Source of the DNA: a candidate division FCPU426 bacterium
Lineage (GTDB): Bacteria; Oederibacteriota; Muellerivitia; Muellerivitales; Muellerivitaceae
DNA: 64,000 nucleotides
Assembly: GCA_027452205.1 (NCBI GenBank)
Contig: DAIDGV010000015.1
Location: forward strand, 11,111-75,110
Reading direction: 5' to 3'
Shown here: piece by piece, positions 4,166-63,917 of the stretch
How the letters are laid out: each line of letters starts with the position of its first letter
How positions within the stretch are numbered: the first letter of the stretch is position 1
Translations under genes and position numbers: made by a program
The notes under the pieces: generated by a model
Seen by the model: only the letters and a program-made list of their open reading frames with translations
Told to the model about the DNA's origin: nothing
Databases searched by the model: none

Positions 4166-5998
4166 TTACTGACCTTTGAATTCGACCGTACGGCTATTTC
4201 CATAATCGCTGACAAAAACGTTGGGCGGAACGGCATTATCCACCGCGATACCAATGGGCACATTGGCATTGAATGAGAAAGAACTGATGTTCGAGGAAGG
4301 ACTTGCACCCCACTCCGCCACATAGGACGGCGATGTTAGGTTGGAAATGTTCCACTCAACCACGCTGAACGAAGAGGACATATTAGCGATAAAAAGCTTT
4401 CCATTTCCGTTCAAAGCGATGCCCGAGGGCGAGACAAACAAGTTGCCCGAATTAAGCTTGTCATAACTCCAAGAGCCCAGCGTGCTACCCGTGCTGTTGA
4501 ACAAAGAAACCTTGTTCGCACTTGTATCCGCGACATAAAGATAGGTCACACCGCCCGACAAAGTAACAGCGATGCCATAGGCCGTGCAACCCGCTGTTGT
4601 TAACAGACCAGCCCCTGGCACAGAGTATGATCCACCCACAAACCCCATGACGTTATCAGTACAGACCGTTGTTCCCACAATATCGGTACCAAACACATCA
4701 TTGCTACTGTCCGAGGCCATGCCATAGGGAAAAATCCAATCCCCACTTGGAGCATAAGAAGAATAATACGAGGGCGAATTGTAACCTGATGGATAAGCAC
4801 TCGCGGAACTCCCGATATAGGCACTACCAGGCACACCACTGCTAGGAAAAGCCAAGACCAACCCCGGTGTCGGAAAGGACTTAACGATCGTGGCCCCGCC
4901 ATTCATCACCGCCAAACCACCCCCAAAAGAATAACTTGGTGTAGAAGCTATGAGTTCTAACCCAGCCGTGGCCACCGGCGATGGAGTCGGACTCATATTG
5001 AAACCTTCGATCCAGCTATTCGTGGCATTGTTGTAATTCGTGTAAAGGATCGTCGCCGCACCGTTCGCAGGACCCGAGACCGCCAAACCGCTTGAAGGGG
5101 TCGCATTCGGAAGGACAAAGATGGACAGAACATTGCTAGCCAAGTCCGCCGTGGTCTGTTCATAAGCGCAGTAAGACAAAGTTGTGTTCACCCGGAAAGT
5201 GAAACTGGGCCCTGTAGTGGAACCATTCCCCACGCTGGTTACCTGTAGCCAGGCATATCCCACTCCATGGAGCTTGCAGCAATAAACATCGTTCAAGGCC
5301 AAGGGATAACTGCTTGCCGAAGCACCACTTCCGGTCAAGACAAAGGATTTCGAGGTGCTGGAATTGATCTCAAAATTGTTCGTCGGTGGCACCGTCAAAT
5401 AGTTGGCCATCACCCCCGTGCCCATGTAAGCGATTCCCACAACGCCGCTGGCGTTCGCTAATTGATAACCCTGCGCACCCATATAGAGGCATTCAATATC
5501 ATTGCTTGCGGCGGTCGAGCTGACAGTATTGGTCTCAAAGTTGTAATAATTATTCTGGGGCAAGGCAGTCACTTCATAACAACCTTTATTCAAAGGTCCC
5601 AACTCCATGGAAAGAACGCCGGAATTAAGCGGTGCCGCAGCCACGGCCAAGGCCTGTCCACTGCTGGTATCGGCTATTTCCACGGAAATGGTTTGATAGG
5701 TCACATGGCTTCCCAAGCTGACGGGAAAGCTGAACGTTCCACTGACACCGGAGGCTGAAAGCGGCCCATAGCTGCCCGTTACCGAGGTGCCCGCGCCGCT
5801 GACGTTGTAATAGATCGTGTTTTGAGAAGCGCCCACGAACTGCACGCCTGAGTGATTATTGGAAGAAAGCTGGACATTCAAGACCCCCGACCCTGCGGGA
5901 GCGCTTGGTTGGGTTCCTTTACCGCATCCCCAAAAGAGGATCGCCGGGGTCACTGTCAGAAAAAACACTGCCAAAACCAATTTGGTCTTCATAGGCAC
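4166..5998 (-). CDS. NHL-repeat lipoprotein, Ser/Gly/Thr-rich
   Basis: Signal peptide with Cys lipobox (AILFWGC). The C-terminal half carries NHL-like repeats (YLYVADTSANKVSLFNSTG, IGIAVD...VFVSDYGNSRTVEF). Low-complexity S/G/T composition. Confidence 0.55.
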   Translation of the reverse strand: MPMKTKLVLAVFFLTVTPAILFWGCGKGTQPSAPAGSGVLNVQLSSNNHSGVQFVGASQNTIYYNVSGAGTSVTGSYGPLSASGVSGTFSFPVSLGSHVTYQTISVEIADTSSGQALAVAAAPLNSGVLSMELGPLNKGCYEVTALPQNNYYNFETNTVSSTAASNDIECLYMGAQGYQLANASGVVGIAYMGTGVMANYLTVPPTNNFEINSSTSKSFVLTGSGASASSYPLALNDVYCCKLHGVGYAWLQVTSVGNGSTTGPSFTFRVNTTLSYCAYEQTTADLASNVLSIFVLPNATPSSGLAVSGPANGAATILYTNYNNATNSWIEGFNMSPTPSPVATAGLELIASTPSYSFGGGLAVMNGGATIVKSFPTPGLVLAFPSSGVPGSAYIGSSASAYPSGYNSPSYYSSYAPSGDWIFPYGMASDSSNDVFGTDIVGTTVCTDNVMGFVGGSYSVPGAGLLTTAGCTAYGIAVTLSGGVTYLYVADTSANKVSLFNSTGSTLGSWSYDKLNSGNLFVSPSGIALNGNGKLFIANMSSSFSVVEWNISNLTSPSYVAEWGASPSSNISSFSFNANVPIGIAVDNAVPPNVFVSDYGNSRTVEFKGQ

Positions 5999-18603: not shown

Positions 18604-18733
18604 GGTGGACCCTGGTGCGAATTACCCGCGGCGCGCCTGATTTGCGGCTTCTTGCCGAAAATCACGGCTTGGCAGTGCCAGTTTCTGAACGAGAAACTGG
18701 CATGGGTCGGTTATTTTAGACCAATTAGCAGAA

Positions 18734-21442: not shown

Positions 21443-21482
21443 AAAAACCTTTGAACCACAGAGTACACAGAGTTCACAGAGT
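21443..21482. repeat. inverted-repeat arm (CACAGAG family), right flank of the GxxExxY gene
   Basis: AAAAACCTTTGAACCACAGAGTACACAGAGTTCACAGAGT. It is the reverse complement of the arm at 21892-21930 and is also found at 25668-25717 and 63782-63820. Confidence 0.7.
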
Positions 21483-21491
21483 AAATCAAAA

Positions 21492-21887
21492 TCAGAGGAC
21501 TATTCTTTTAACGCCATTTTTCATCGAAGCAACATTGAAATTGAGAAGTAATCCAATTCTTTTTTCCGTTAATTTCAAATACGTCAAAAGTTGAGCCTCA
21601 TGGACAGGTTTAACTTCTTCTACGGCTTTCAGCTCAACAATAACCTGATCCTCGACCAAAAGATCAATCCTAAAACCAGCGTCTAACTCAACTTCTTTAT
21701 ATCGAACAGGGACCGGCACTTGCTGTTCAACCTTCAAAGCTCGTGATTTCAACTCATACAACAAACAATGTTCATAGGCACTTTCCAACAACCCGGGGCC
21801 CAATTGAGTATGAACCGCATAAGCCGAATCCACGACCGCACCAGATATCTTATTCGTTTCTTCAGAAATCAAATTTTGGTTTTTCAT
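21492..21887 (-). CDS. GxxExxY-family protein (PD-(D/E)xK nuclease-like fold)
   Basis: 131 aa with the motif GLLESAYE and family-typical layout (DSAYAVHTQLGPGLLESAYEHCL...RIDLLVEDQVIVELKA). The CDS is bracketed within 5-9 nt on each side by inverted-repeat arms. Confidence 0.7.
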   Translation of the reverse strand: MKNQNLISEETNKISGAVVDSAYAVHTQLGPGLLESAYEHCLLYELKSRALKVEQQVPVPVRYKEVELDAGFRIDLLVEDQVIVELKAVEEVKPVHEAQLLTYLKLTEKRIGLLLNFNVASMKNGVKRIVL

Positions 21888-21891
21888 TTTA

Positions 21892-21930
21892 ACTCTGTGT
21901 ACTCTGTGTACTCTGTGGTTAAAGTGTTTT
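21892..21930. repeat. inverted-repeat arm (CACAGAG family), left flank of the GxxExxY gene
   Basis: ACTCTGTGTACTCTGTGTACTCTGTGGTTAAAGTGTTTT. It is the reverse complement of 21443-21482 with ~2 mismatches over ~38 nt. Confidence 0.7.
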
Positions 21931-23200
21931 AATCCTCAACAACGATGGCTTTTTCTTTGATCCGCTTCGACAACTTGTTGGCCAGCTTCTGGGCGGCGGT
22001 GCGGGTGGCAAAATGCCCGGTGCGCAGCTTATAAAGAACATAAGTTCCATCCGCCGCGTTCACCGTGACCACGTAATATTTATATCCTGCTTTGCGCAAG
22101 CCTTTTTCAGTCAGAAGAAGGTTGGCCTTCTTGGAATAGACCCCGATCTGCACATGGTAAGGGGTGGATTTGAGCACCGGTTGATCCACCGTCGCTTCTT
22201 GTTCCGCCTCTTCGGGCGTAGCGGCCTCTTCGATTGGCGTCGCCTCTTCGGTCTCGACCACGGTCGGGGTCACTCCTACTGTTGCAAAAGGCGGCACCAG
22301 GGCCGGAGTGGCCGTAACAGCAACCGTCACGGTCGGTGTAGGAACGATCGTGACGGAGGCTTGCAACGCAGGGTGCGTTTTAAGTAGTTCCGCCATACGC
22401 GTCTGGGCCTCGCCCACTTCGATCGCTTTAGGGTAATTGCTGACCAGCGTTTGATAGGCGGCGAAAGCTTGCTTCCATTTTTTCTCCATCTCATAGGTCT
22501 CACCCAACTTCAGATAGACCAGATTCAATTCGTCGTAAGTGGCATATTGATCCAGGATGCGTAAATAGCGATTCTCGGCATCGGAGAACTTTTGGGTCTT
22601 GAAGTAAGCGTTCCCCATGCCCAACAAAGCCTTGGGCGCCCAATTAGTTTGTTTCCCTTGATCCATGACCTTTTCGAACTCTTTGATGGCCAACTCGGTC
22701 TGTTCCGCCGCCAAATAGGAAGATCCCAACCAGTAGTGCACTTCCACCGCCATCGGGCTTTTTTCATAATGGTCTAGGAACTCTTTATAGGCCGAAGCCG
22801 CGTCCTCGTATTTGTCGGCCAAATAATATCGGTCGGCCAATTCCTTCTGGGCTTCCATTCCCTCGGGCTGGTCCTCGTATTCGGCGGCCACTTCCTGCAA
22901 CTGGGCCACCGACACTTCGAAATCCTCTTGCACTTTGGCCAGCATCAAGCGAGCCTGAGGAATGATACTGTCCATCGGGTGCTCCGCCACCAGGGGAGCC
23001 AGGATATCCTTGCAGTCTTTATAATCCTTATCGGCGAAATACTTCTTGGCCTTTTCGAAAAGTTCTTTCGTTTCGCCCGCCACCGGGGTAACCACGGAAT
23101 CTATCTCTTTTTTTTGGGCCGCCTCATCCGCCGCGATATCCGCCAATGCGGCCGATGTGACCATAAAACAGAGGAAAAGAAACCAAAGGGATCGACGCAT
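21929..23200 (-). CDS. secreted TPR-repeat protein with C-terminal SPOR (peptidoglycan-binding) domain
   Basis: Signal peptide, TPR-like helical repeats, then the C-terminal SPOR-like segment YHVQIGVYSKKANLL...AGYKYYVVTV...YKLRTGHFATRTAAQ. Confidence 0.6.
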   Translation of the reverse strand: MRRSLWFLFLCFMVTSAALADIAADEAAQKKEIDSVVTPVAGETKELFEKAKKYFADKDYKDCKDILAPLVAEHPMDSIIPQARLMLAKVQEDFEVSVAQLQEVAAEYEDQPEGMEAQKELADRYYLADKYEDAASAYKEFLDHYEKSPMAVEVHYWLGSSYLAAEQTELAIKEFEKVMDQGKQTNWAPKALLGMGNAYFKTQKFSDAENRYLRILDQYATYDELNLVYLKLGETYEMEKKWKQAFAAYQTLVSNYPKAIEVGEAQTRMAELLKTHPALQASVTIVPTPTVTVAVTATPALVPPFATVGVTPTVVETEEATPIEEAATPEEAEQEATVDQPVLKSTPYHVQIGVYSKKANLLLTEKGLRKAGYKYYVVTVNAADGTYVLYKLRTGHFATRTAAQKLANKLSKRIKEKAIVVED

Positions 23201-24962: not shown

Positions 24963-25643
24963 TTAGTTGGATTGTTCGGGGGTCGGTTCAGCCGCAGGGG
25001 TCTCGGCTTCGCCCATAGGGGTCTCGGCCTGTTCCATCGGCGTCAAACCCATCTTGGTCTCACGACGACGCAACTCCCCTTCCATTTCCTTGAGGAAACC
25101 CGGCGAGGGACGGTCCCCTGCCAATTCTTGGATCTCGGAGACCTTCGGCAGGTCGGCCAGATCTTTCAAACCAAAGTGGATCAAGAACTCGGTGGTGGTT
25201 CCATAAAGCAAAGGACGACCTGGGGTTTCGGCACGGCCCAGGATACGGATCATGCGCTTTTCAAGCAGGGACTGCACGAGGTTGCTCACCTCGACCCCGC
25301 GGATCGCTTCAACTTCCGCCCGGGTAACGGGCTGTTTATAGGCGATGATGGCCAGTGCCTCTAATGAGGCTTTGGACAAGCGGGTCTTGGAAATGACTTT
25401 GTAAAGTTCTTTGGCCCAGCGGTGATATTCGGGCCGCGTGACCAATTGATAACCCTCGGCGACCTGCACCAATTGAAAGCTGCGGTCCAGTTGATTGATA
25501 TCTTCCCTCAAAGAAGCGAAGGCCTGTTCGACTTCTTCTAATGATCCATCCTTCAAGAACGCAGCGACCTTTTTGGCCGGCAGGGGCGAGTCGCTGACGA
25601 ACAGAAGGCTTTCCAGGACTTTTTTGAGCTTATCGATTTCCAT
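24963..25643 (-). CDS. scpB: segregation and condensation protein B
   Basis: ScpB winged-helix regions (LLFVSDSPL..., VTRAEVEAIRGV). Confidence 0.85.
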   Translation of the reverse strand: MEIDKLKKVLESLLFVSDSPLPAKKVAAFLKDGSLEEVEQAFASLREDINQLDRSFQLVQVAEGYQLVTRPEYHRWAKELYKVISKTRLSKASLEALAIIAYKQPVTRAEVEAIRGVEVSNLVQSLLEKRMIRILGRAETPGRPLLYGTTTEFLIHFGLKDLADLPKVSEIQELAGDRPSPGFLKEMEGELRRRETKMGLTPMEQAETPMGEAETPAAEPTPEQSN

Positions 25644-25667
25644 GAACTTCCTCTTAAATTCTAAAGA

Positions 25668-25790
25668 TCAAACCTTGAACCACAGGCTGCCTCCGGCAGC
25701 CACAGAGTACACAGAGTTTGGATTTTTACCAAAACCTTAATTCTTTGTCTCACTCTGAGCACTCTGTGTACTCTGTAGTTAGATTGTTTT
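25668..25790. repeat. 'empty' palindromic repeat unit of the CACAGAG family, exactly filling the scpA-scpB spacer
   Basis: Left arm: CAAACCTTGAACCACAG[GCTGCCTCCGGCAGC]CACAGAGTACACAGAGT. A 33-nt AT-rich loop follows. Right arm: CACTCTGAGCACTCTGTGTACTCTGTAGTTAGATTGTTTT. The right arm ends 1 nt into the scpA stop codon. Confidence 0.7.
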
Positions 25791-26641
25791 CAAATCGTTT
25801 CCGGCGAATTGGCCGGCATCTCAGCTTGCAACAAGTGAACTTCGATCTCCCCAAAGATCTTGTTCTGTACCACCCGGACCAGCTTTAGGCGCACCAACTC
25901 GAGCAAGGCCAATAAGGCCACTACCTTTTCCATCTTGGTGCGGCAAGCCGTCAAGATAGGACGGAAGACGATACGTCGGTCGCTTTGTTGCAGCAGATCC
26001 ATCAGGTCGTTGATCTTCTGGCTGACGGTGATCTCAGGACGCACCAATTCGGCGGTGACATCCTCTTGGGTATGGATGAGCACGTCCTTGAAGGCCGCCA
26101 AGAGACCGAACAAAGTGACCTCTTCCAAATGTTCCTCTTCACCCACTTCTTTCATGTCACTCGGCACGTTACGGGGGAAAAGATGGGCCCGACCCTTTTC
26201 CATCTCTTGCAACTGGTCGGCGGCATCCTTGAACTTCTTATATTCAACCAGTCGGCGCATCAACTCCAACCGCGGGTCCTCTTCCGGCTCGTCAGGCGAA
26301 GGATCGATGGGCAGCAACATGCGGCTCTTGATCTGCATCAGGGTAGCCGCCATCACCAAAAAGTCCCCGGCGATCTCCAGGTTCAGGGACCGCATGACCT
26401 CGAGATAATCGAGGTATTCCCGGGTGATCTTGGAGATATGGATGTCGTAGATGTCCAGCTCATGCTCCCGGATGAGGTGGAGCAAAAGGTCCATTGGTCC
26501 GTCAAAGAGCGGGATGGTGATCTGGTAGGTCGGACGCGAGTCTTCCTGGTTGATGATCTCACGGATCATTACCGTAGCCACGTCCTTGGACAGAGCGACG
26601 CTAACGGGTTCGGTCGGGGTTTCGGGTGTTTGATCGGTCAT
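25790..26641 (-). CDS. scpA: segregation and condensation protein A
   Basis: ScpA family similarity across 283 aa. It lies adjacent to and upstream of scpB. Confidence 0.85.
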   Translation of the reverse strand: MTDQTPETPTEPVSVALSKDVATVMIREIINQEDSRPTYQITIPLFDGPMDLLLHLIREHELDIYDIHISKITREYLDYLEVMRSLNLEIAGDFLVMAATLMQIKSRMLLPIDPSPDEPEEDPRLELMRRLVEYKKFKDAADQLQEMEKGRAHLFPRNVPSDMKEVGEEEHLEEVTLFGLLAAFKDVLIHTQEDVTAELVRPEITVSQKINDLMDLLQQSDRRIVFRPILTACRTKMEKVVALLALLELVRLKLVRVVQNKIFGEIEVHLLQAEMPANSPETI

Positions 26642-28356: not shown

Positions 28357-29667
28357 CTATCCGGCTGGCGCGAAAGCCTGCTTGACCCATTGGATCACTT
28401 CTTTTCGGGACTTAAAACGCCCGTCCAATTGGCCGTTCAAGGCCTCCAACAGGATATAGGAATAACGGAAACCCGGTGGAATACCGAATTCTTTCAGGTC
28501 CCTTCCCCGTAGCCAGGGTTTGAGATTCTTCATTTTCAGGAAATAATCGGTCATCTTCTTTCGCACAGCCTTGGGCGCGGCGGCCAATAAAAAACATTGG
28601 ACCTCAGGATGCAAAGGCGAAAGCAAGCGATAGATCCGGCTGGGCGTGGTCTTTTTCGAGGCGATCTCTTTTAAAAGCGCGGGATAAGCCTTGGCGTGTT
28701 GAACAACGATCTTTTGCTCGTCCCGGGACAGCATCAAACGCTTGGCCAGGGCCTCTGCCTGAACAGGAGTAGGCGTTAGCAGCATGGCTTGGAACCAAAC
28801 CATTCCAGGCGAATCCAGATGTATCTTGTGATCATGAAAGAAGCCAAGGGCTTTGGTGATCTCGGGCAATAACCGGCGCTTCGAAGCGGAAAGACCCAAC
28901 GCGGGATGGACCATAGGTAAGACTCCTAACTTTCCCAGCCGGGCAATCGCCCTTTCGGGATGTTCTTCTTTGAAAATAAGCAAAAATTCGTTCCGGAGTC
29001 TTTCCCCGGAAACGGTGTTCATGGACTTTTGACCGATAGAGTCTATCAGCCATTTTTGTGTTTCGGCCTCGATGCGCTTATTAAATCTTTGCTCGAACCG
29101 TACCGCGCGAAAAACCCTTGTCGGATCGTCCACAAAACTCAAAGGATGAAGGGCTTTTACCCTCCCCTTCTTAAGGTCATTCAAGCCCTGATAGGGGTCC
29201 AAAAGCAAGAGAAAGGACTTGGGCGAAAGGTCTAAAGCCATGGCGTTGATCGTGAAATCCCGGCGGAAAAGGTCCTGGTTAATACCGCTCTTCTCTACAT
29301 CCGGCAGGGCGCCGGGCTGGGCATAGGTCTCGGTGCGGGCGGTGGCGATATCCAACTTGCCAAAACCCGAAATGATGACGATAGAGGTACCAAAACGGGT
29401 GAAAGCTTCGACCTTGGAACCGGTCTTGGCCGCCAGGGCTTGGGCAAAGGCCAGACCATCTCCCTCGATAGTGATGTCGATGTCAGGGCTGGTCTTTTTC
29501 AGGAAGAGGTCGCGAACAAAGCCTCCCACCGCATAGGCCTTCTCATTCCGGGACTCGGCCAAATAGCCGATCTGCCGAAAGAGTTTGAGCGTTTTGGGTG
29601 GAATAGCGAATGAATATTTTTTCATCTCAGACATTAAAAACCCCATCAACCGAAAAGGCATTCTCAA
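28357..29667 (-). CDS. cca: CCA-adding tRNA nucleotidyltransferase / poly(A) polymerase family protein
   Basis: Pol-beta-type head motif GGFVRDLFL...DIDI. Confidence 0.7.
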   Translation of the reverse strand: MRMPFRLMGFLMSEMKKYSFAIPPKTLKLFRQIGYLAESRNEKAYAVGGFVRDLFLKKTSPDIDITIEGDGLAFAQALAAKTGSKVEAFTRFGTSIVIISGFGKLDIATARTETYAQPGALPDVEKSGINQDLFRRDFTINAMALDLSPKSFLLLLDPYQGLNDLKKGRVKALHPLSFVDDPTRVFRAVRFEQRFNKRIEAETQKWLIDSIGQKSMNTVSGERLRNEFLLIFKEEHPERAIARLGKLGVLPMVHPALGLSASKRRLLPEITKALGFFHDHKIHLDSPGMVWFQAMLLTPTPVQAEALAKRLMLSRDEQKIVVQHAKAYPALLKEIASKKTTPSRIYRLLSPLHPEVQCFLLAAAPKAVRKKMTDYFLKMKNLKPWLRGRDLKEFGIPPGFRYSYILLEALNGQLDGRFKSRKEVIQWVKQAFAPAG

Positions 29668-30022
29668 AATGATGAACCTTCAGGAATCCCAAGAAATTCT
29701 TATCTGGGCCCACCGCGATGATGTCGAACCGGCAAGTGTTATAGGGTTGTTCATAGTTGGATAAAAAGACCGCCGCGGCCGCCGAAACCCTTTTCACCTT
29801 TTGAGGCGAGACTGCTTCAATAGGTGTGCCGTGAGAATCATCCTTACGGGCCTTCACCTCAATGAAGACCAGGGTCTCCCTCTTTCGGGCGATCAGGTCG
29901 ATCTCACCCTGGGGCACCCGGTAATTTCGCTCCAGAACTTGATAACCCCGCAGGCGCAGGTAAGCTGCCGCGCGGCGTTCCCCCATTTGACCTTTTTGAT
30001 AGGCACTGAGACTTTTTTTCAT
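29627..30022 (-). CDS. yraN: YraN-family (UPF0102) endonuclease
   Basis: GERRAAAYLRLRGYQVLERNYR..GEIDLIARKRETLVFIEVKAR, the family-typical PD-(D/E)xK core. Confidence 0.75.
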   Translation of the reverse strand: MKKSLSAYQKGQMGERRAAAYLRLRGYQVLERNYRVPQGEIDLIARKRETLVFIEVKARKDDSHGTPIEAVSPQKVKRVSAAAAVFLSNYEQPYNTCRFDIIAVGPDKNFLGFLKVHHFENAFSVDGVFNV

Positions 30023-30045
30023 TGGGGGGTCACCAACAAAATAAA

Positions 30046-32031
30046 TTACTCATCGCCGAAACCTTTCCTACCTTCTGGAACGTTCCGTGAAAAGGGCACA
30101 TATTTATTCTGGATCAAATAGTGGAAAAGGATCTCCGCGATCAATCGGTTGCCATAGAGACTATAGTGCGCCGCATTCGCCGGATAATAAACAACCTTTA
30201 ATGCGTTATAGGTATCCGAAAAGTCCACGAAAGGTAAATGATAGTAATCACCCAGGGCCTTCCAAAAGGTCACACAACATTCGTTCGGAAACAAGTCGGT
30301 CGGGACATAGTAGAGCAAGAATTGAGGCGCCTTTCCCGAGGAAGTCCTTATTTTTTTCAGTTTGGCATTCATCATATCCAGCCTTTGGCCGGTCAATTGG
30401 ATCAAGTCCTTCTCGATCTGCGCGTCGCCTGTGCAAAAAAGGCTCCACAACCCGTCGCCTGGGGAGTCTTGTTTCTCGGACACGGGTATCTTGAGGGCTT
30501 TACAGCGTTTTAAAAGGTCCGATGCGGGTCCGGTTGTGGCCCTTTGAGACAATGGTTTCAACAGATAATCCTGGTTGATCGTGCGGGAAGGGATGCCTTC
30601 CGATGTCAAGGGCTTATCATAATAGTCCTGGTAACCACTTCCTTCGGTCATACCAATGACTAGGTCAATATCGTACTTTTTGACGAAATCCGGTATGTCC
30701 TCATAAACCCAGGAACTTAGCGATTTTCCCCGACGTGAAAAATTGAGCACTTCATAGTGGAGCTTGTTGTCCTGAAACGAGGCCTCCAGGTTCAACTTGA
30801 ATTCCAACTGTTTACAGAATGTCTTCTGCATTGTGTTCCCTCCGGGGACTAGGTCCTCATCCAAGTGCTTTGCCGGATCGTCTGGGATGGGATAGACCAC
30901 GCAATTACGGGACCCGCCAATGGCCAAGATTCGGAAAGTGTTCTTGGGTTTCTTCACGGGATAATCGAAATCCATGTCGAATACATTCTCGACATGAAGG
31001 TCCCGTACGCTATCGATCTGTTGGTTGGAAACGATAAAGAACTTACGGGTATCTGCGGATGCTGTAGCAAACCCAGCTTTGGGGCCAAAACTAGGTTGGA
31101 TAAAAGACATCCCGTGATCCTGGTTGTCGAACGGGGTCCCCCATGGAGTGATGAAATGGACCTGCCGGGAAGGATTTCCGACCTCGACCAACGAACCCGT
31201 CTTATCAATACAGTAAAGCTTATCTCCCGTAACCGCTAAGGAGAGGACCGAGCTGACCGTCCCCAAAAGGGAAAAAGACCCTTTTCCGATCGGGCTTGAG
31301 GCTGGCGTCACCCACTCAAGGATAGAACCAAGGTCCCTGTCCGCCAAACATAGATTCCCATGAAGAACTGCCAGCTCCTTGGGATGAGGCATGTTAGCGT
31401 TATTTTGCAATACCACCGACAGAAGATTGCTTCTCAGGTCGAATCTTTCGACCTTACCATTGTCCGGCTCGGCTAGATAAAGGCTGTCATCCGTTGGAAT
31501 GTAGACCATGTCGGATACGCCGCCCACTTTGGTCAAAGTAGATACTTTGCCACCCTTGAGATCGACCATACGTATGGCCATGGATTTGTCGTCATAGACC
31601 ACAAGTCGGGTTGGTGATAATAAAGTCAAGAGCACTGGGTATTCAAAGGTCGCTAGGCTGACAGGTCCATCCTGGGTACCCGCGATATCGTTACCCGCGA
31701 TGGTCTCCACCCGGTTCATTTCATCCAATCGGACCACGCGGATCCGGTGATTGCCCGAATCGGCAACATAAAGAGATTCATTCTCTTCGTCATAGGCCAG
31801 GCCCTGGGGATCATGAAAACGGGCCCGATCGAAAGCTCCATCGGCGAACCCCGAACTGACCCCACCCGCCACAAAAGTTTGGTAAAAATCCATCGGTGCC
31901 TGGGCGTTTGCCATTCCCGAGAAGGGTCCATAGGCGGCACAAAAGGTCATCCAGATCATGGTTAGCCTGAAGGCTATCCGTTTTTTCATGTCATTCACCT
32001 TGGATTTAGACTGGGGGCTAGGCCGGCTCAC
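30046..32031 (-). CDS. secreted NHL-repeat protein with C-terminal SGNH-like domain (paralogue of 8843..10840); true start probably Met-15 (~31989)
   Basis: Signal peptide MKKRIAFRLTMIWMTFCAAYG, NHL repeats (LYVADSGNHRIRVV), FRILAIGGSRN, and a C-terminus ...NAAHYSLYGNRLIAEIL. The paralogue at 8843..10840 has the same architecture. Confidence 0.55.
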   Translation of the reverse strand: MSRPSPQSKSKVNDMKKRIAFRLTMIWMTFCAAYGPFSGMANAQAPMDFYQTFVAGGVSSGFADGAFDRARFHDPQGLAYDEENESLYVADSGNHRIRVVRLDEMNRVETIAGNDIAGTQDGPVSLATFEYPVLLTLLSPTRLVVYDDKSMAIRMVDLKGGKVSTLTKVGGVSDMVYIPTDDSLYLAEPDNGKVERFDLRSNLLSVVLQNNANMPHPKELAVLHGNLCLADRDLGSILEWVTPASSPIGKGSFSLLGTVSSVLSLAVTGDKLYCIDKTGSLVEVGNPSRQVHFITPWGTPFDNQDHGMSFIQPSFGPKAGFATASADTRKFFIVSNQQIDSVRDLHVENVFDMDFDYPVKKPKNTFRILAIGGSRNCVVYPIPDDPAKHLDEDLVPGGNTMQKTFCKQLEFKLNLEASFQDNKLHYEVLNFSRRGKSLSSWVYEDIPDFVKKYDIDLVIGMTEGSGYQDYYDKPLTSEGIPSRTINQDYLLKPLSQRATTGPASDLLKRCKALKIPVSEKQDSPGDGLWSLFCTGDAQIEKDLIQLTGQRLDMMNAKLKKIRTSSGKAPQFLLYYVPTDLFPNECCVTFWKALGDYYHLPFVDFSDTYNALKVVYYPANAAHYSLYGNRLIAEILFHYLIQNKYVPFSRNVPEGRKGFGDE

Positions 32032-32489
32032 TGCTGATCGGTGATCGAAATGGGGACCTTATCAAACTCGTCCTCAGCCTCATCCCAGACCTTCAGGACG
32101 AAACTGTCCTTCACATCATCCACCGTCCCAGACCATACCTTGCCCGGCGAGGTGGCTTCAAGGACTTCCATACCAAAGGCCGTGTTACGTACAGGGTCTA
32201 GAACAACCGTTTTACCGGTGGTCACGTCCTTGATGGCAAACTTGAGCTTGTGGATCTCATAGCTACGGTTCGAAAATTGGAGGCCGATAACATAAGGAGG
32301 TTGGCTGTTCCAGCCAAAACGAAAGACCACATCGGCAAAATGCTGCTTATCATCGTCCGGAACGGAATAAAAGACTGAAACTGTCTGGAATTTTTTCGAC
32401 AGATCATCCCCAGCTTGGTCCTGAGCCAGTAAGGGAACAGAGAGTGACCATAAGACACAAAGAATATAGCCCCACATTTCATTCTTCAT
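32028..32489 (-). CDS. small secreted protein, hypothetical; upstream of and abutting the NHL-SGNH paralogue
   Basis: Signal peptide MKNEMWGYILCVLWSLSVPLLAQ. It overlaps the downstream ORF by 4 nt (or lies 39 nt from its alternative start). Confidence 0.45.
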   Translation of the reverse strand: MKNEMWGYILCVLWSLSVPLLAQDQAGDDLSKKFQTVSVFYSVPDDDKQHFADVVFRFGWNSQPPYVIGLQFSNRSYEIHKLKFAIKDVTTGKTVVLDPVRNTAFGMEVLEATSPGKVWSGTVDDVKDSFVLKVWDEAEDEFDKVPISITDQQ

Positions 32490-32617
32490 ACTTTCAACCT
32501 CATCCGGCGAATAAATCCACGTTAAATTCTAACCTTTTTTCGTTCTTTAAACCATTTTCCATTGGCATTGGGAGAACAAAACAAGACACTCGGGCCCATT
32601 CAGGCACCGATCCCGCT

Positions 32618-33592
32618 TTAGACCCGCAAACGGTCCCGTATCGCCCTGAAGACATCTCTCAATTTCCCCACTTCATTTTGGGTCAAGGCTTCCAACCCGG
32701 CCCGTTTGATCTGAAGCCCGGCTTGGTTCAATTCGCTCATGCTTTTCGCGGTTTCCAATTTGACCTTCCAGAATTCAAAAGGACCACCGTTGCTGCTTTG
32801 GGCCAGCACTTCCATCACCGGCGCGAAGGTCCGCCGGTGCTCCGGGCAGGGTCCATGTTCCTTAATAGCTTGAATGTGGATCTCGGTGCCATAGCCTTTG
32901 TGGCCATCAAAGCCATAGACCGGGTATTTCTGATGAAGTTCTTCCATGAGGCGGTCCCGAGTCACCTTGGCAAGAATGGACGCTGCCGCGATGCTGGACG
33001 ATAAAGCATCGCCATGGATGAGAGGTTTTTGGGAGATATGAGAGAGGGACGGCAGCGGCATGGCATCGGTTAAAAGGAAATCAGGCGAAGGTTTTAGGGC
33101 CTCAATAGCCCGCTTCATCGCCAATTGGGTGGCTTTATAGATATTGAGCTCGTCGATTTCTTGAACGCTGGCTTGGCCCACGCCGTAACTGACCGCTGTA
33201 GAGCGAACCAATTCAAAAAGTTCATCCCTTTTAGCGGGGGTCAGCTTTTTAGAATCATCGACACCCTTCAAAGCGCCCGTGGGCGGCAAAATAACCGCGG
33301 CGGCCACCACCGGCCCCGCCAAAGGGCCCCGGCCCGCTTCATCCACGCCCGCGACAGCCTTGTGACCTTTCAAGAAAGCCTCTTTTTCATAACGCCAAAG
33401 GGTCTCTAATTTTTCATTTTCTTTGTCGGCTCGAGTGGCTTTCTTTTCGAACTTCTCGATGAGCTTTTGCGCGCCCGGACGGGTGTCCTGGGAAAGAGCT
33501 TTCCTGACCCAGGTCAAGGCCTCTTGGACATCATTGATCTGAAGGGCTTTTGATTCAATTTCCGCTAGCGGTTGGTTTGGCAACAGGGGCAC
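32618..33592 (-). CDS. rnhB: ribonuclease HII with ~85-aa N-terminal extension (start uncertain)
   Basis: GVDEAGRGPLAGPVVAAAVIL catalytic motif and the RNase HII core across the C-terminal ~220 aa. Confidence 0.85.
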   Translation of the reverse strand: MPLLPNQPLAEIESKALQINDVQEALTWVRKALSQDTRPGAQKLIEKFEKKATRADKENEKLETLWRYEKEAFLKGHKAVAGVDEAGRGPLAGPVVAAAVILPPTGALKGVDDSKKLTPAKRDELFELVRSTAVSYGVGQASVQEIDELNIYKATQLAMKRAIEALKPSPDFLLTDAMPLPSLSHISQKPLIHGDALSSSIAAASILAKVTRDRLMEELHQKYPVYGFDGHKGYGTEIHIQAIKEHGPCPEHRRTFAPVMEVLAQSSNGGPFEFWKVKLETAKSMSELNQAGLQIKRAGLEALTQNEVGKLRDVFRAIRDRLRV

Positions 33593-63781: not shown

Positions 63782-63917
63782 AAACATTTTCACCACAGAG
63801 TACACGGAGTACACAGGGTGAAGATTGATTTTAAATCCAAAATTTCGAATTCTTAACAGCCGTACTCTGTGAACTCTGTGGCCGCCAAAGGCGGCCTGTG
63901 GTTCATGATGTTCAGCC
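63782..63917. repeat. 'empty' palindromic repeat unit of the CACAGAG family upstream of yajQ
   Basis: Left arm: AAACATTTTCACCACAGAGTACACGGAGTACACAGGGTG. An AT-rich loop follows (TTTTAAATCCAAAATTTCGAATTCTTAAC). Right arm: CCGTACTCTGTGAACTCTGTGG[CCGCCAAAGGCGGC]CTGTGGTTCATGATGTTC. Confidence 0.65.

What the first reader, a model, noticed from the sequence alone, without database searches (positions are those of the whole stretch)
25668..25790. Empty palindromic repeat unit fills the scpA-scpB spacer and carries a nested GC mini-hairpin flanked by a CACAG duplication
The unit occupies the intergenic spacer between scpA and scpB and ends 1 nt into the scpA stop codon. Inside the left arm, the 15-nt palindrome GCTGCCTCCGGCAGC is inserted between two copies of CACAG (aaCCACAG[gctgcctccggcagc]CACAGagtac). 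This looks like a target-site duplication or stem-extension event within the repeat arm. The loop (TTGGATTTTTACCAAAACCTTAATTCTTTG) is AT-rich in an otherwise GC-rich genome. Co-directional essential genes on either side imply the unit is transcribed within the scpAB mRNA.
Basis: seen in the sequence. Interest (0 to 1): 0.55.

Follow-up and report, generated by a model that had tools for sequence, protein, structure and literature searches.

The report
Gene-less mobile palindrome between scpA and scpB
The scpA-scpB spacer holds a gene-less copy of a mobile palindromic cassette whose complete form carries a small GxxExxY nuclease gene, and its nested GC hairpin is a rare, recurring arm variant rather than a one-off insertion; the cassette family occurs in many bacterial phyla and I found no description of it.

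Summary
A palindromic unit fills the 146-nt scpA-scpB spacer. It has a perfect 16-nt inverted repeat. A GC palindrome at 25686-25700 sits between two CACAG.

The arms are tandem CACAGAGNN nonamers. The window has three such units. One (21443-21928) carries an intact 131-aa GxxExxY (PD-(D/E)XK) nuclease gene. The other two are gene-less, with loops that look like remnants of that gene.

A sister lineage (about 88% DNA identity) lacks all three units and has 20-25 nt spacers at those sites. The units are therefore insertion polymorphisms.

Five of five GxxExxY genes chosen by protein alone, from other organisms, are flanked by the same inverted CACAGAG arrays. The array motif occurs in more than 120 species from many phyla.

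The nested hairpin is not private to this copy. The same 7-bp-stem, 3-nt-loop palindrome sits at the same position in seven arms: two in the window and five in metagenomes. All pairs are intact, and two stem positions show compensatory changes. It was never found outside an arm.

The "CACAG duplication" is most simply two consecutive repeat cores, not a target-site duplication. Mobilisation by the nuclease and any role of the hairpin are inferred, not shown.

The parts
25654..25789 (.). Gene-less palindromic unit (copy 2) filling the scpA-scpB spacer. This is the segment with no counterpart in sister genomes; the core palindrome is 25677-25782.
   Evidence: BLAST to L195 breaks at 25653 and 25787, with 8 nt in L195 against 133 nt here. 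Alignment A2 shows the same gap. Sister spacers are 20, 20, 31 and 12 nt.
25677..25685 (+). Outer terminus GAACCACAG, the outermost repeat core of the hairpin-bearing arm.
   Evidence: The family terminus logo is TTnRC|CACAGAG.
25685..25701 (.). Nested GC palindrome G-GCTGCC-TCC-GGCAGC-C: 7-bp stem, 3-nt loop.
   Evidence: Folds at -8.4 kcal/mol as ssDNA, z = -4.2. Forms a side branch in the RNA fold of the whole unit.
25701..25717 (+). Two tandem nonamers, CACAGAGTA CACAGAGT; left half of the perfect inverted repeat.
25718..25750 (.). AT-rich loop (about 27% GC), probably a remnant of the interior of a gene-bearing unit.
   Evidence: Homologous to the copy-3 loop (score 26 against a null of 14.1 +/- 2.9). 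The copy-3 loop in turn matches the 5' end of the copy-1 ORF region (score 30 against 19.6 +/- 3.0).
25751..25782 (-). Plain arm. Read on the - strand: CTAAC TACAGAGTA CACAGAGTG CTCAGAGTG, i.e. three nonamers plus the terminus.
   Evidence: alignment A4.
25790..26641 (-). scpA, the upstream gene; stop codon at 25790-25792.
   Evidence: Best NCBIfam ScpA match E 7.7e-61, 205.6 bits, below that model's curated cut-off of 315. Close homologues carry Pfam PF02616 SMC_ScpA.
24963..25643 (-). scpB, the downstream gene. Its own ribosome-binding site (GAGGAAG) is retained after the unit.
   Evidence: TIGR00281, E 4.2e-41. Alignment A2.
21443..21928 (-). Complete unit (copy 1). Arms at 21453-21483 and 21892-21920 have three nonamers each and no hairpin. 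They bracket the GxxExxY ORF 21492..21887(-). The unit fills the spacer exactly, from the stop codon of the TPR/SPOR-domain gene (21929..23200) to the mutS ATG.
   Evidence: TIGR04256, E 8.1e-46, 155 bits against a cut-off of 35. PF13366.. Sister genomes have 25-27 nt here.
63790..63906 (.). Gene-less unit (copy 3) upstream of yajQ. Plain arm 63790-63819; loop 63820-63863; hairpin-bearing arm 63864-63904, with the palindrome GCCGCCAAAGGCGGC at 63881-63895.
   Evidence: RNA fold -46.6 kcal/mol, z = -4.2, a three-way junction. Sister genomes have a 21-nt spacer here.

Best explanation
What it is. The feature is a gene-less derivative of a mobile palindromic cassette.

The complete cassette is present in the window at 21443-21928. 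It is a ~125-130-aa GxxExxY (PD-(D/E)XK fold) nuclease gene bracketed by inverted arrays of two or three tandem CACAGAGNN nonamers. Each array ends outward in TTnRC-CACAG.

The scpA-scpB copy keeps both arms but only about 33 nt of AT-rich interior.

Shown here:
- The arm family is real, and it associates with GxxExxY genes in unrelated organisms.
- All three window units are absent from a sister lineage with intact flanking genes, so they are insertion/deletion polymorphisms.
- Arm type is genome-specific and shared by complete and gene-less units.

Inferred:
- The GxxExxY nuclease recognises the nonamer arrays and mobilises both the complete and the gene-less units, in the way a RAYT is thought to act on REPINs.
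- The unit is transcribed within scpAB mRNA and folds into a long branched stem-loop of about -47 kcal/mol. The scpB ribosome-binding site remains intact.

The nested GC palindrome. It is a heritable optional module. It occupies the spacer of the outermost nonamer of one arm: CACAG-[15 nt]-CACAGAG in place of CACAG-AGNN-CACAGAG. The two flanking CACAG are consecutive repeat cores, not a target-site duplication.

Its constant size and position, and its compensatory stem changes, indicate that pairing itself is maintained, in single-stranded DNA or in RNA. My best guess is that it acts as a stable branch that marks or nucleates folding of one end of the element. That role is not shown.
For: Family and chance: the arm motif has 10 hits against 0.1 expected, and there are three units in the window.

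Cargo: TIGR04256 at E 8e-46 and PF13366. D75, E85 and K87, the residues I read as the PD-(D/E)XK catalytic triad, are invariant in 20 homologues. The structure model has pLDDT 94.5, and its best PDB matches are Cas4, lambda exonuclease and other PD-(D/E)XK nucleases.

Association independent of the DNA motif: 5 of 5 protein-selected GxxExxY loci (P0005, P0014, P0050, P0051, P0037) are flanked by inverted CACAGAG arrays and are co-directional with both neighbours. In addition, 16 of 23 homologues with a long N-terminus begin with a translated arm, MNHRDTETQR....

Empty sites in the sister lineage:
- scpA-scpB: 20, 20, 31 and 12 nt.
- TPR/SPOR-domain gene to mutS: 25-27 nt.
- rodZ-like gene to yajQ: 21 nt.
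There is no CACAGAG arm in L195, L196, L198 or L199.

Genome-specific arms shared by complete and gene-less units: the window uses CACAGAGTN at 9-nt period. L183 has one complete and four gene-less units in 20 kb, all with the same 10-nt-period arm.

Loop remnant homology.

Hairpin:
- Seven arms carry CCACAG + 15-nt palindrome + exactly two nonamers.
- All 7 pairs form in all 7 arms. C:G changes to T:A at two stem positions.
- It is absent outside arms.
- Partner arms have three cores in the three complete hairpin units. Ordinary units have equal repeat numbers on both arms in 63 of 92 cases.
- It is stable as ssDNA, -8.3 to -9.6 kcal/mol, and forms a side branch in whole-unit folds.

Read-through: no promoter-like or terminator-like site in the spacer.
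Against: - No nuclease activity, transcript or transposition event has been observed; mobilisation by GxxExxY is by analogy only.
- No clean target-site duplication or defined insertion mechanism could be read from the three filled/empty site pairs. The sister lineage is about 12% diverged, which blurs the junctions.
- Removing the hairpin plus one CACAG restores a canonical arm exactly, so an insertion with a 5-nt duplication remains formally possible.
- Relative to loop orientation, the hairpin is on the ORF-start-side arm in copy 2 and on the other arm in copy 3. Simple inheritance of one arm variant explains this only if loops can invert.
- Four of the five metagenome hairpin arms have no partner arm within the DNA available; one of them (L145) runs off the end of its contig.
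- Perfect short palindromes can also be kept perfect by template-switch repair, without selection.
- The source genome beyond this window could not be retrieved, so only six arms of this genome were seen.
Confidence: 0.6

Rival explanations
1. The nested palindrome is an independent miniature insertion. It targets CACAG and duplicates it as a 5-nt target-site duplication, and it entered different arms separately.
For: Removing the 15-nt palindrome plus one CACAG gives exactly the canonical arm in both window copies. The same palindrome core occurs in arms with different nonamer spacers (TA/TT, AG, GG) and different termini (GAACC, TCACC, TTACC). It lies on opposite arms relative to loop orientation in copies 2 and 3. 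In copy 2, the continuous 20-bp helix with a 20-nt bulge is the tidier pairing.
Against: It was never found away from an arm: there are no other exact matches in the 64-kb window or in the 120 genome loci held at the time (about 0.8 Mb). It is always followed by exactly two nonamers while the partner arms have three; under an insertion model, all three complete hairpin units would then be asymmetric, although 68% of ordinary units are symmetric. CACAG recurs every 9 nt in any arm, so flanking CACAG carries no information. A 15-nt element has no known means of moving on its own.
Confidence: 0.2
2. The palindrome is a neutral repair scar: filler made when a break after CACAG in the outermost repeat was repaired, then copied along with the unit.
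For: Other rearrangements in the family also break right after CCACAG. These are tandem duplications of the terminus with 0-4 nt of filler in L135, L148/L178 and L121. Different GC palindromes follow terminal CACAGAG in other lineages: TCCGCCACAGGCGGA in L154, L155 and L171, and TGGCGCGTCCTGCGCCA in L121.
Against: Seven arms from six contigs share one palindrome design (GYYGCC-NNN-GGCRRC, always 15 nt) and show compensatory changes. This is not what independent scars would give. A scar copied from a single ancestor would be expected to accumulate mismatches, and none is seen.
Confidence: 0.1
3. The unit is a host regulatory element of the scpAB operon (attenuator, terminator, mRNA stabiliser or processing site) rather than a mobile element.
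For: It lies inside an operon and folds strongly (-46.6 kcal/mol, z = -4.4). REP and Correia elements are known from the literature to affect mRNA stability and processing (general knowledge, not tested here).
Against: It is absent from the scpA-scpB spacer of all four related contigs examined. The same unit type sits at unrelated loci (mutS, yajQ) and in many phyla. There is no terminator-like U-tract and no Rfam family match. Any regulatory effect would be secondary to insertion.
Confidence: 0.1

Closest known systems
REPIN / REP elements with their RAYT genes (REP-associated tyrosine transposases)
   Same: Both consist of short intergenic palindromes present in several copies per genome, plus a single small nuclease-type gene that is itself flanked by the same repeats in inverted orientation. 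In both, the repeat type is genome-specific. The gene-less palindromes would be mobilised in trans (inferred here).
   Different: The associated protein here is a PD-(D/E)XK-fold GxxExxY protein, not an HUH/Y1 transposase. The arms are arrays of tandem CACAGAGNN nonamers, not a single GTAG- or CGTC-tagged 20-40 bp imperfect palindrome (PMC3733652). The same 7-nt core is shared across many phyla.
Bacterial MITEs such as Correia/NEMIS, ERIC, RUP
   Same: Both are about 100-150 bp with terminal inverted repeats. Both are gene-less derivatives of a larger element, insert in intergenic regions including inside operons, are co-transcribed, and fold into long hairpins.
   Different: The parent element is not an IS with a DDE transposase. 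No clear target-site duplication is visible. The inverted repeats are internally repetitive with roughly one-helical-turn periodicity.
23S rRNA intervening sequences that carry a small ORF (S23p / four-helix-bundle protein, TIGR02436)
   Same: Both are a small ORF enclosed by long inverted repeats that form a stem, inserted into a transcribed region. Presence varies between close relatives.
   Different: The host site is protein-gene spacers, not rRNA helices. The ORF belongs to a different family. RNase III excision is documented for intervening sequences and untested here.
Subterminal hairpins of the IS200/IS605 family, and REP hairpins
   Same: The nested element is a small, GC-rich, structure-conserved hairpin next to a fixed short motif (here CACAG) at an element end.
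   Different: No Y1 transposase is present. The hairpin is optional: it occurs on only one arm, and in a small minority of arms.

Membership tests
GxxExxY protein (TIGR04256) / PDDEXK_3 (PF13366) - ORF of the complete unit, 21492..21887(-) | Whole-protein score above the curated cut-off | tested here: met
   TIGR04256: 155.2 bits against a cut-off of 35, E 8.1e-46. PF13366: 150.2 bits against 22.
PD-(D/E)XK nuclease superfamily | Catalytic D ... (D/E)-x-K motif on the conserved alpha/beta core | tested here: met
   D75, E85 and K87 are invariant in 20 homologues; reading them as the catalytic motif is my interpretation. The model has pLDDT 94.5. The best PDB folds are Cas4 4ic1, lambda exonuclease and CinB, but only weakly (E 6.5e-3, TMq 0.53). 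Catalysis was not tested.
REPIN-RAYT system | The associated gene is an HUH/Y1 (IS200-like) transposase flanked by the repeats | tested here: not met
   The flanked gene is PF13366/TIGR04256; there is no Y1 transposase hit.
REPIN-RAYT system | The repeat is a 20-40 bp imperfect palindrome tagged by GTAG or CGTC (PMC3733652) | tested here: not met
   The arms are tandem CACAGAGNN arrays ending in CCACAG. The nested palindrome is flanked by CACAG, not by GTAG or CGTC.
MITE (miniature inverted-repeat transposable element) | Short, non-coding, with terminal inverted repeats, in several copies | tested here: met
   (95 paired units; most loops are 5-150 nt).
MITE | Target-site duplication of fixed length at the insertion | tested here: inconclusive
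   The three filled/empty comparisons show no clean duplication. Only TTTGA and TGAA fragments recur, and copy 1 replaces the whole spacer. The comparison genomes are about 12% diverged.
MITE | Derived from an IS that encodes a transposase with the same inverted repeats | tested here: not met
   The parent unit encodes a 131-aa PD-(D/E)XK protein, which belongs to no recognised transposase family.
Intrinsic (Rho-independent) terminator | GC-rich hairpin followed directly by a U-tract | tested here: not met
   No terminator-like site in 25400-26000 on either strand. The hairpin is followed by CACAGAG on one strand and CUGUGG on the other.
Any curated RNA family (Rfam 15) | Score at or above the family's gathering threshold | tested here: not met
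   Best match is 19.9 bits against a threshold of 62 (mir-785, spurious). The only hits above threshold in the window are two tRNAs.
Nested-hairpin arm variant (defined here) | CCACAG + 15-nt palindrome GYYGCC-NNN-GGCRRC + exactly two nonamers | tested here: met
   Window 25680-25717 and 63864-63901(-), plus L133, L145, L158, L163 and L182.

The most novel reading that the evidence does not exclude
GxxExxY genes with their inverted CACAGAG nonamer arrays would be a previously undescribed, cross-phylum class of selfish element. It would move using a minimal PD-(D/E)XK nuclease instead of a transposase or homing endonuclease of a known type, cutting right after CACAG in the outermost repeat. It would seed large numbers of gene-less palindromes inside operons. 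The nested GC hairpin would then be a structure-specific end marker, or a product of that cleavage chemistry.
Probability: 0.3. Interest if true: 0.85.

Novelty: new variant of a known kind. Interest (0 to 1): 0.62.

Why it matters
GxxExxY / PDDEXK_3 is a very large protein family: 34,437 clusters at 50% identity. No function is recorded for it in the literature I could search.

This work ties the family to a defined DNA partner, tandem CACAGAG nonamer arrays. It also shows presence/absence polymorphism of both complete and gene-less units inside housekeeping operons. Together these give the family a testable role as the engine of a REPIN-like repeat system built on a different enzyme fold.

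It would also explain a class of intergenic palindromes, and spurious 'MNHRDTETQR' N-termini in annotated proteins, seen across Acidobacteriota, Planctomycetota, Bacteroidota, Cyanobacteria, Proteobacteria and some archaeal genome bins.

For this locus specifically, a strongly folding 130-nt insert now separates two genes that are 12-31 nt apart in relatives. That may affect ScpA/ScpB stoichiometry.

The hairpin on its own is a minor variant. Its value is that it points to CACAG| as a recurrent breakpoint.

Tried and rejected
- Rfam, at E-value and gathering thresholds: nothing relevant.
- Promoter and terminator scan of the spacer: nothing.
- Retrieving the source contig to see more arms of this genome: exact look-ups failed for three window proteins. 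The cluster table shows only an unnamed 148,971-nt NCBI contig. The organism stays unidentified; the names that sources give its close homologues say only '[bacterium]'.
- Protein-guided search of viral contigs for GxxExxY loci: 83 pattern matches, but none confirmed.
- DNA-pattern scan of viral contigs for insert-bearing arms: 7 hits, none with this hairpin.
- Hairpin as a free dispersed mini-element: rejected, because there is no copy outside arms.
- Search for a target-site duplication at the three filled/empty sites: inconclusive.
- L154 against L155 as a with/without pair for a related palindrome (CCGCCTTCGGCGG): the alignment shows a replacement, not a clean insertion. Not pursued.
- Within-unit against between-unit arm identity at variable positions: only 0.49 against 0.37, too noisy with my arm caller. 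Not used.
- Bias of gene-less units towards operon-internal sites: 37 of 50 lie between co-directional ORFs, which I judge (general knowledge, not tested here) to be about what any bacterial intergenic region would give.
- Sequence search of PDB with the family profile: no hit.
- PADLOC and PHROGs: only weak Cas4-like hits, so there is no evidence for a known defence system.
- Literature searches for GxxExxY, PDDEXK_3, TIGR04256 and CACAGAG repeats: no description of the element.
- The matches at 4619 and 38244 are chance hits, not units.

Full report
**Observation.**
- scpA (25790..26641) and scpB (24963..25643) are both on the minus strand. Both match NCBIfam ScpA/ScpB models; ScpB passes its curated cut-off, while the ScpA matches fall below theirs. 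Close homologues carry the Pfam SMC_ScpA domain. The spacer between them is 146 nt.
- Inside it is a perfect 16-nt inverted repeat: ACAGAGTACACAGAGT at 25702-25717 and its complement at 25761-25776.
- The 15-nt palindrome GCTGCCTCCGGCAGC lies at 25686-25700, between two CACAG.
- With the adjoining G and C, the palindrome is 17 nt with a 7-bp stem.
- The arm motif is far beyond chance: 10 matches against 0.1 expected.
- One correction: the window is 50-57% GC, not GC-rich.

**The family in the window.** The arms are tandem nonamers, CACAGAGTN. There are three units.
- Copy 1 (21443-21928) fills the spacer exactly, from the stop codon of a TPR/SPOR-domain gene to the mutS start codon. Each arm has three nonamers and no hairpin. 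It encloses an intact 131-aa ORF that is a clear GxxExxY / PDDEXK_3 protein (TIGR04256, 155 bits against a cut-off of 35; PF13366).
- Copy 2 is the finding.
- Copy 3 (63790-63906, upstream of yajQ) is also gene-less. At the same position of one arm it carries a different GC palindrome: GAACCACAG[GCCGCCTTTGGCGGC]CACAGAGTT.
- The loops of copies 2 and 3 are homologous to each other. The copy-3 loop matches the first codons of the copy-1 ORF region. The gene-less units therefore look like deletion derivatives of a gene-bearing unit.

**The units are insertions.** I retrieved relatives through ScpA and YajQ homologues.

A sister lineage is represented by L195, L196 and L205-L209. Its ScpA is 99% and its YajQ 97% identical in protein, and its DNA is about 86-91% identical over the shared genes.

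| Site | Sister lineage and other relatives | Window |
|---|---|---|
| scpA to scpB | 20 nt (L195, L196); 31 nt (L199); 12 nt (L198) | 146 nt |
| TPR/SPOR-domain gene to mutS | 25-27 nt | 486 nt |
| rodZ-like gene to yajQ | 21 nt | 144 nt |

Sources. None of L195, L196, L198 or L199 contains a single CACAGAG arm.

Flanking coding sequence and the scpB ribosome-binding site are intact in the window. All three units are therefore presence/absence polymorphisms.

I could not read a clean target-site duplication. The empty sites oddly resemble the element termini: TAAACAGG against TGAACCACAGG, and GCGGTTCA..AAAGG against GTGGTTCAAAGG. I leave this unexplained.

- The loci come from Planctomycetota, Acidobacteriota, Bacteroidota, Cyanobacteria, Desulfobacterota, Gammaproteobacteria, Chloroflexota, Spirochaetota and others. 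They include two archaeal genome bins.
- Most are the same kind of object: TTnRC-CACAGAG-NN-CACAGAG..., a short loop, then the inverted array.
- A few are coincidental coding repeats.
- Across all loci the core spacing is 9 nt (357 cases), against 10 nt (40) and 8 nt (26). Arms have three (162) or two (141) repeats.
- Of the 95 paired units, most are gene-less, with loops of 5-150 nt. Those with coding-size loops mostly carry GxxExxY.

The reverse test, starting from proteins, is cleaner.
- Five GxxExxY proteins were chosen from the homologue list without reference to DNA. All five lie between inverted CACAGAG arrays and are co-directional with both neighbours.
- Their settings include cysE-cysS in peat metagenomes, RuBisCO large subunit-cbbQ in a gammaproteobacterial bin, and next to hicB in an acidobacterial bin.
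- Many database entries start MNHRDTETQR..., which is a translated arm.
- In L183, one complete and four gene-less units within 20 kb share the same 10-nt-period arm. The window units all use CACAGAGTN at 9-nt period. Arm type is thus genome-specific and shared by complete and gene-less units.

The protein family is large: 34,437 clusters at 50% identity. Its members are very similar across phyla, at 60-70% identity. It has no solved close relative. D75, E85 and K87, which I read as the catalytic D...E-x-K motif, are invariant.

I found no paper that links this family to a repeat.

**The nested hairpin.**
- It is absent from the arms of the 120 genome loci. The pattern GCYGCCNNNGGCRGC matches exactly nowhere else in the window or in those loci. 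It is therefore not a dispersed mini-element.
- A metagenome scan for CCACAG-G(12-19 nt)C-CACAGAGNNCACAGAG returned 55 loci. Five carry a palindrome of exactly 15 nt at that position: GTCGCCTTCGGCGAC (L133, L163), GCCGCCGAGGGCGGC (L145) and GCCGCCTTCGGCGGC (L158, L182).
- The arms carrying it otherwise differ in their nonamer spacers and termini.
- Across the seven arms, all seven stem pairs always form. Two stem positions switch between C:G and T:A. The loop varies.
- Each hairpin is stable on its own, -8.3 to -9.6 kcal/mol as ssDNA. It forms a side branch in the folds of the whole units.

On the proposed duplication: every hairpin is followed by exactly two nonamers. The partner arm, where present (copy 2, copy 3, L158), has three cores, like the plain arms of copy 1. 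Ordinary units have equal repeat numbers on both arms in 63 of 92 cases.

The simplest reading is that the palindrome replaces the 4-nt tail of the outermost nonamer. The two CACAG are then neighbouring repeat cores, not a target-site duplication.

The insertion-with-duplication reading is not excluded. Removing the 20 nt restores a canonical arm. The hairpin also lies on different arms relative to loop orientation in copies 2 and 3.

Other rearrangements in the family also break right after CCACAG: terminal tandem duplications in L135, L148/L178 and L121. Other GC palindromes follow terminal CACAGAG in other lineages. This hints that CACAG| is a recurrent breakpoint.

**Mechanism, with status.**
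- Shown: the family, the association with GxxExxY, the insertion polymorphism, and the recurrence and covariation of the hairpin.
- Inferred: the nuclease recognises the one-turn-spaced nonamer arrays and mobilises complete and gene-less units, as proposed for RAYTs and REPINs.
- Inferred: the scpA-scpB copy is read through, since no promoter-like or terminator-like site is present, and folds to about -47 kcal/mol (z = -4.4).
- Inferred: the hairpin is kept because its structure matters, at the DNA or RNA level.

**Comparison with known systems.** The element works most like REPIN-RAYT and like MITEs such as Correia. It fails the defining features of both: there is no Y1 transposase, no GTAG/CGTC tag, no DDE-type parent IS, and no clear target-site duplication. 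I therefore file it as a new variant of the 'palindromic repeat plus flanked nuclease gene' kind, not as a member of either family.

**Verdict.** The hairpin itself is a modest curiosity. The element family it belongs to is the more interesting result.

Noticed in passing
L001-L120 (genome scan): Two adjacent CACAGAGT nonamers occur in more than 120 species from many phyla, including Methanothrix and Nanohaloarchaeota bins. Most are gene-less palindromic units with the terminus TTnRC-CACAGAG. A few are coincidental coding repeats (Streptomyces L006, Ruminococcus L005/L046, L092).
   Followed up: partly
L183-L194, L200-L204: GxxExxY cassettes sit inside housekeeping operons, co-directional with both neighbours: cysE-[cassette]-cysS, conserved across proteins only 69% identical; RuBisCO large subunit-[cassette]-cbbQ; and a HMGL-like-domain gene-[cassette]-an aconitase-like ORF.
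   Followed up: partly
L135:389-429, L148:667-705, L178:9735-9773, L121:10535-10573: Tandem duplications of the element terminus plus its outer flank, with both copies ending in CCACAG and 0-4 nt of filler between them. This suggests a recurrent breakpoint right after CACAG.
   Followed up: no
L154, L155, L171 (hairpin TCCGCCACAGGCGGA); L121 (TGGCGCGTCCTGCGCCA, two copies): Other, unrelated GC palindromes also sit directly after a terminal CACAGAG in other lineages, including a viral contig. L155 also carries CCGCCTTCGGCGG inside a different repeat in its loop.
   Followed up: partly
window 25786-25800, 21443-21460, 21905-21928, 63896-63915 compared with L195 and L205: The unoccupied sites in the sister lineage resemble the element's own termini (CTAAAATC/TTGAAAAC; GCGGTTCA..AAAGG/GTGGTTCAAAGG; TAAACAGG/TGAACCACAGG). 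In all three window units the upstream gene's stop codon lies at most 5 nt from the unit's outer end, and in copies 1 and 2 it directly abuts or overlaps it.
   Followed up: partly
proteins P0242-P0253 and others: Many top family hits are about 270-295 aa with two GxxExxY domains. They may be tandem cassettes, or read-through across an arm that is open in frame.
   Followed up: no
L204:1470-1500, L200:1470-1500: The innermost nonamer (CACAGAGG) supplies a Shine-Dalgarno-like GAGG 6-9 nt before the GxxExxY start codon. In copy 1 of the window the arm is open in the ORF's frame (NHRVHRVHRVKM).
   Followed up: no
proteins P0090, P0103; L174: Variant repeat cores exist, for example CACGAAG, which translates as NHEGTK. 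These could be used to test co-variation with protein clades.
   Followed up: no
window 29574-32683 compared with L195: The window has about 2.7 kb (30007-32683, a 661-aa and a 153-aa ORF) where L195 has about 70 nt. It lacks the 641-aa NHL-repeat gene that L195 has between the UPF0102/NERD gene and the poly(A) polymerase-family gene.
   Followed up: no
window 18627-18703: Downstream of mutS there is a 76-nt segment with no counterpart in L195. It contains the hairpin GCCAGTTTCTGAACGAGAAACTGGC, which looks like a terminator stem. It is unrelated to the CACAGAG family.
   Followed up: no
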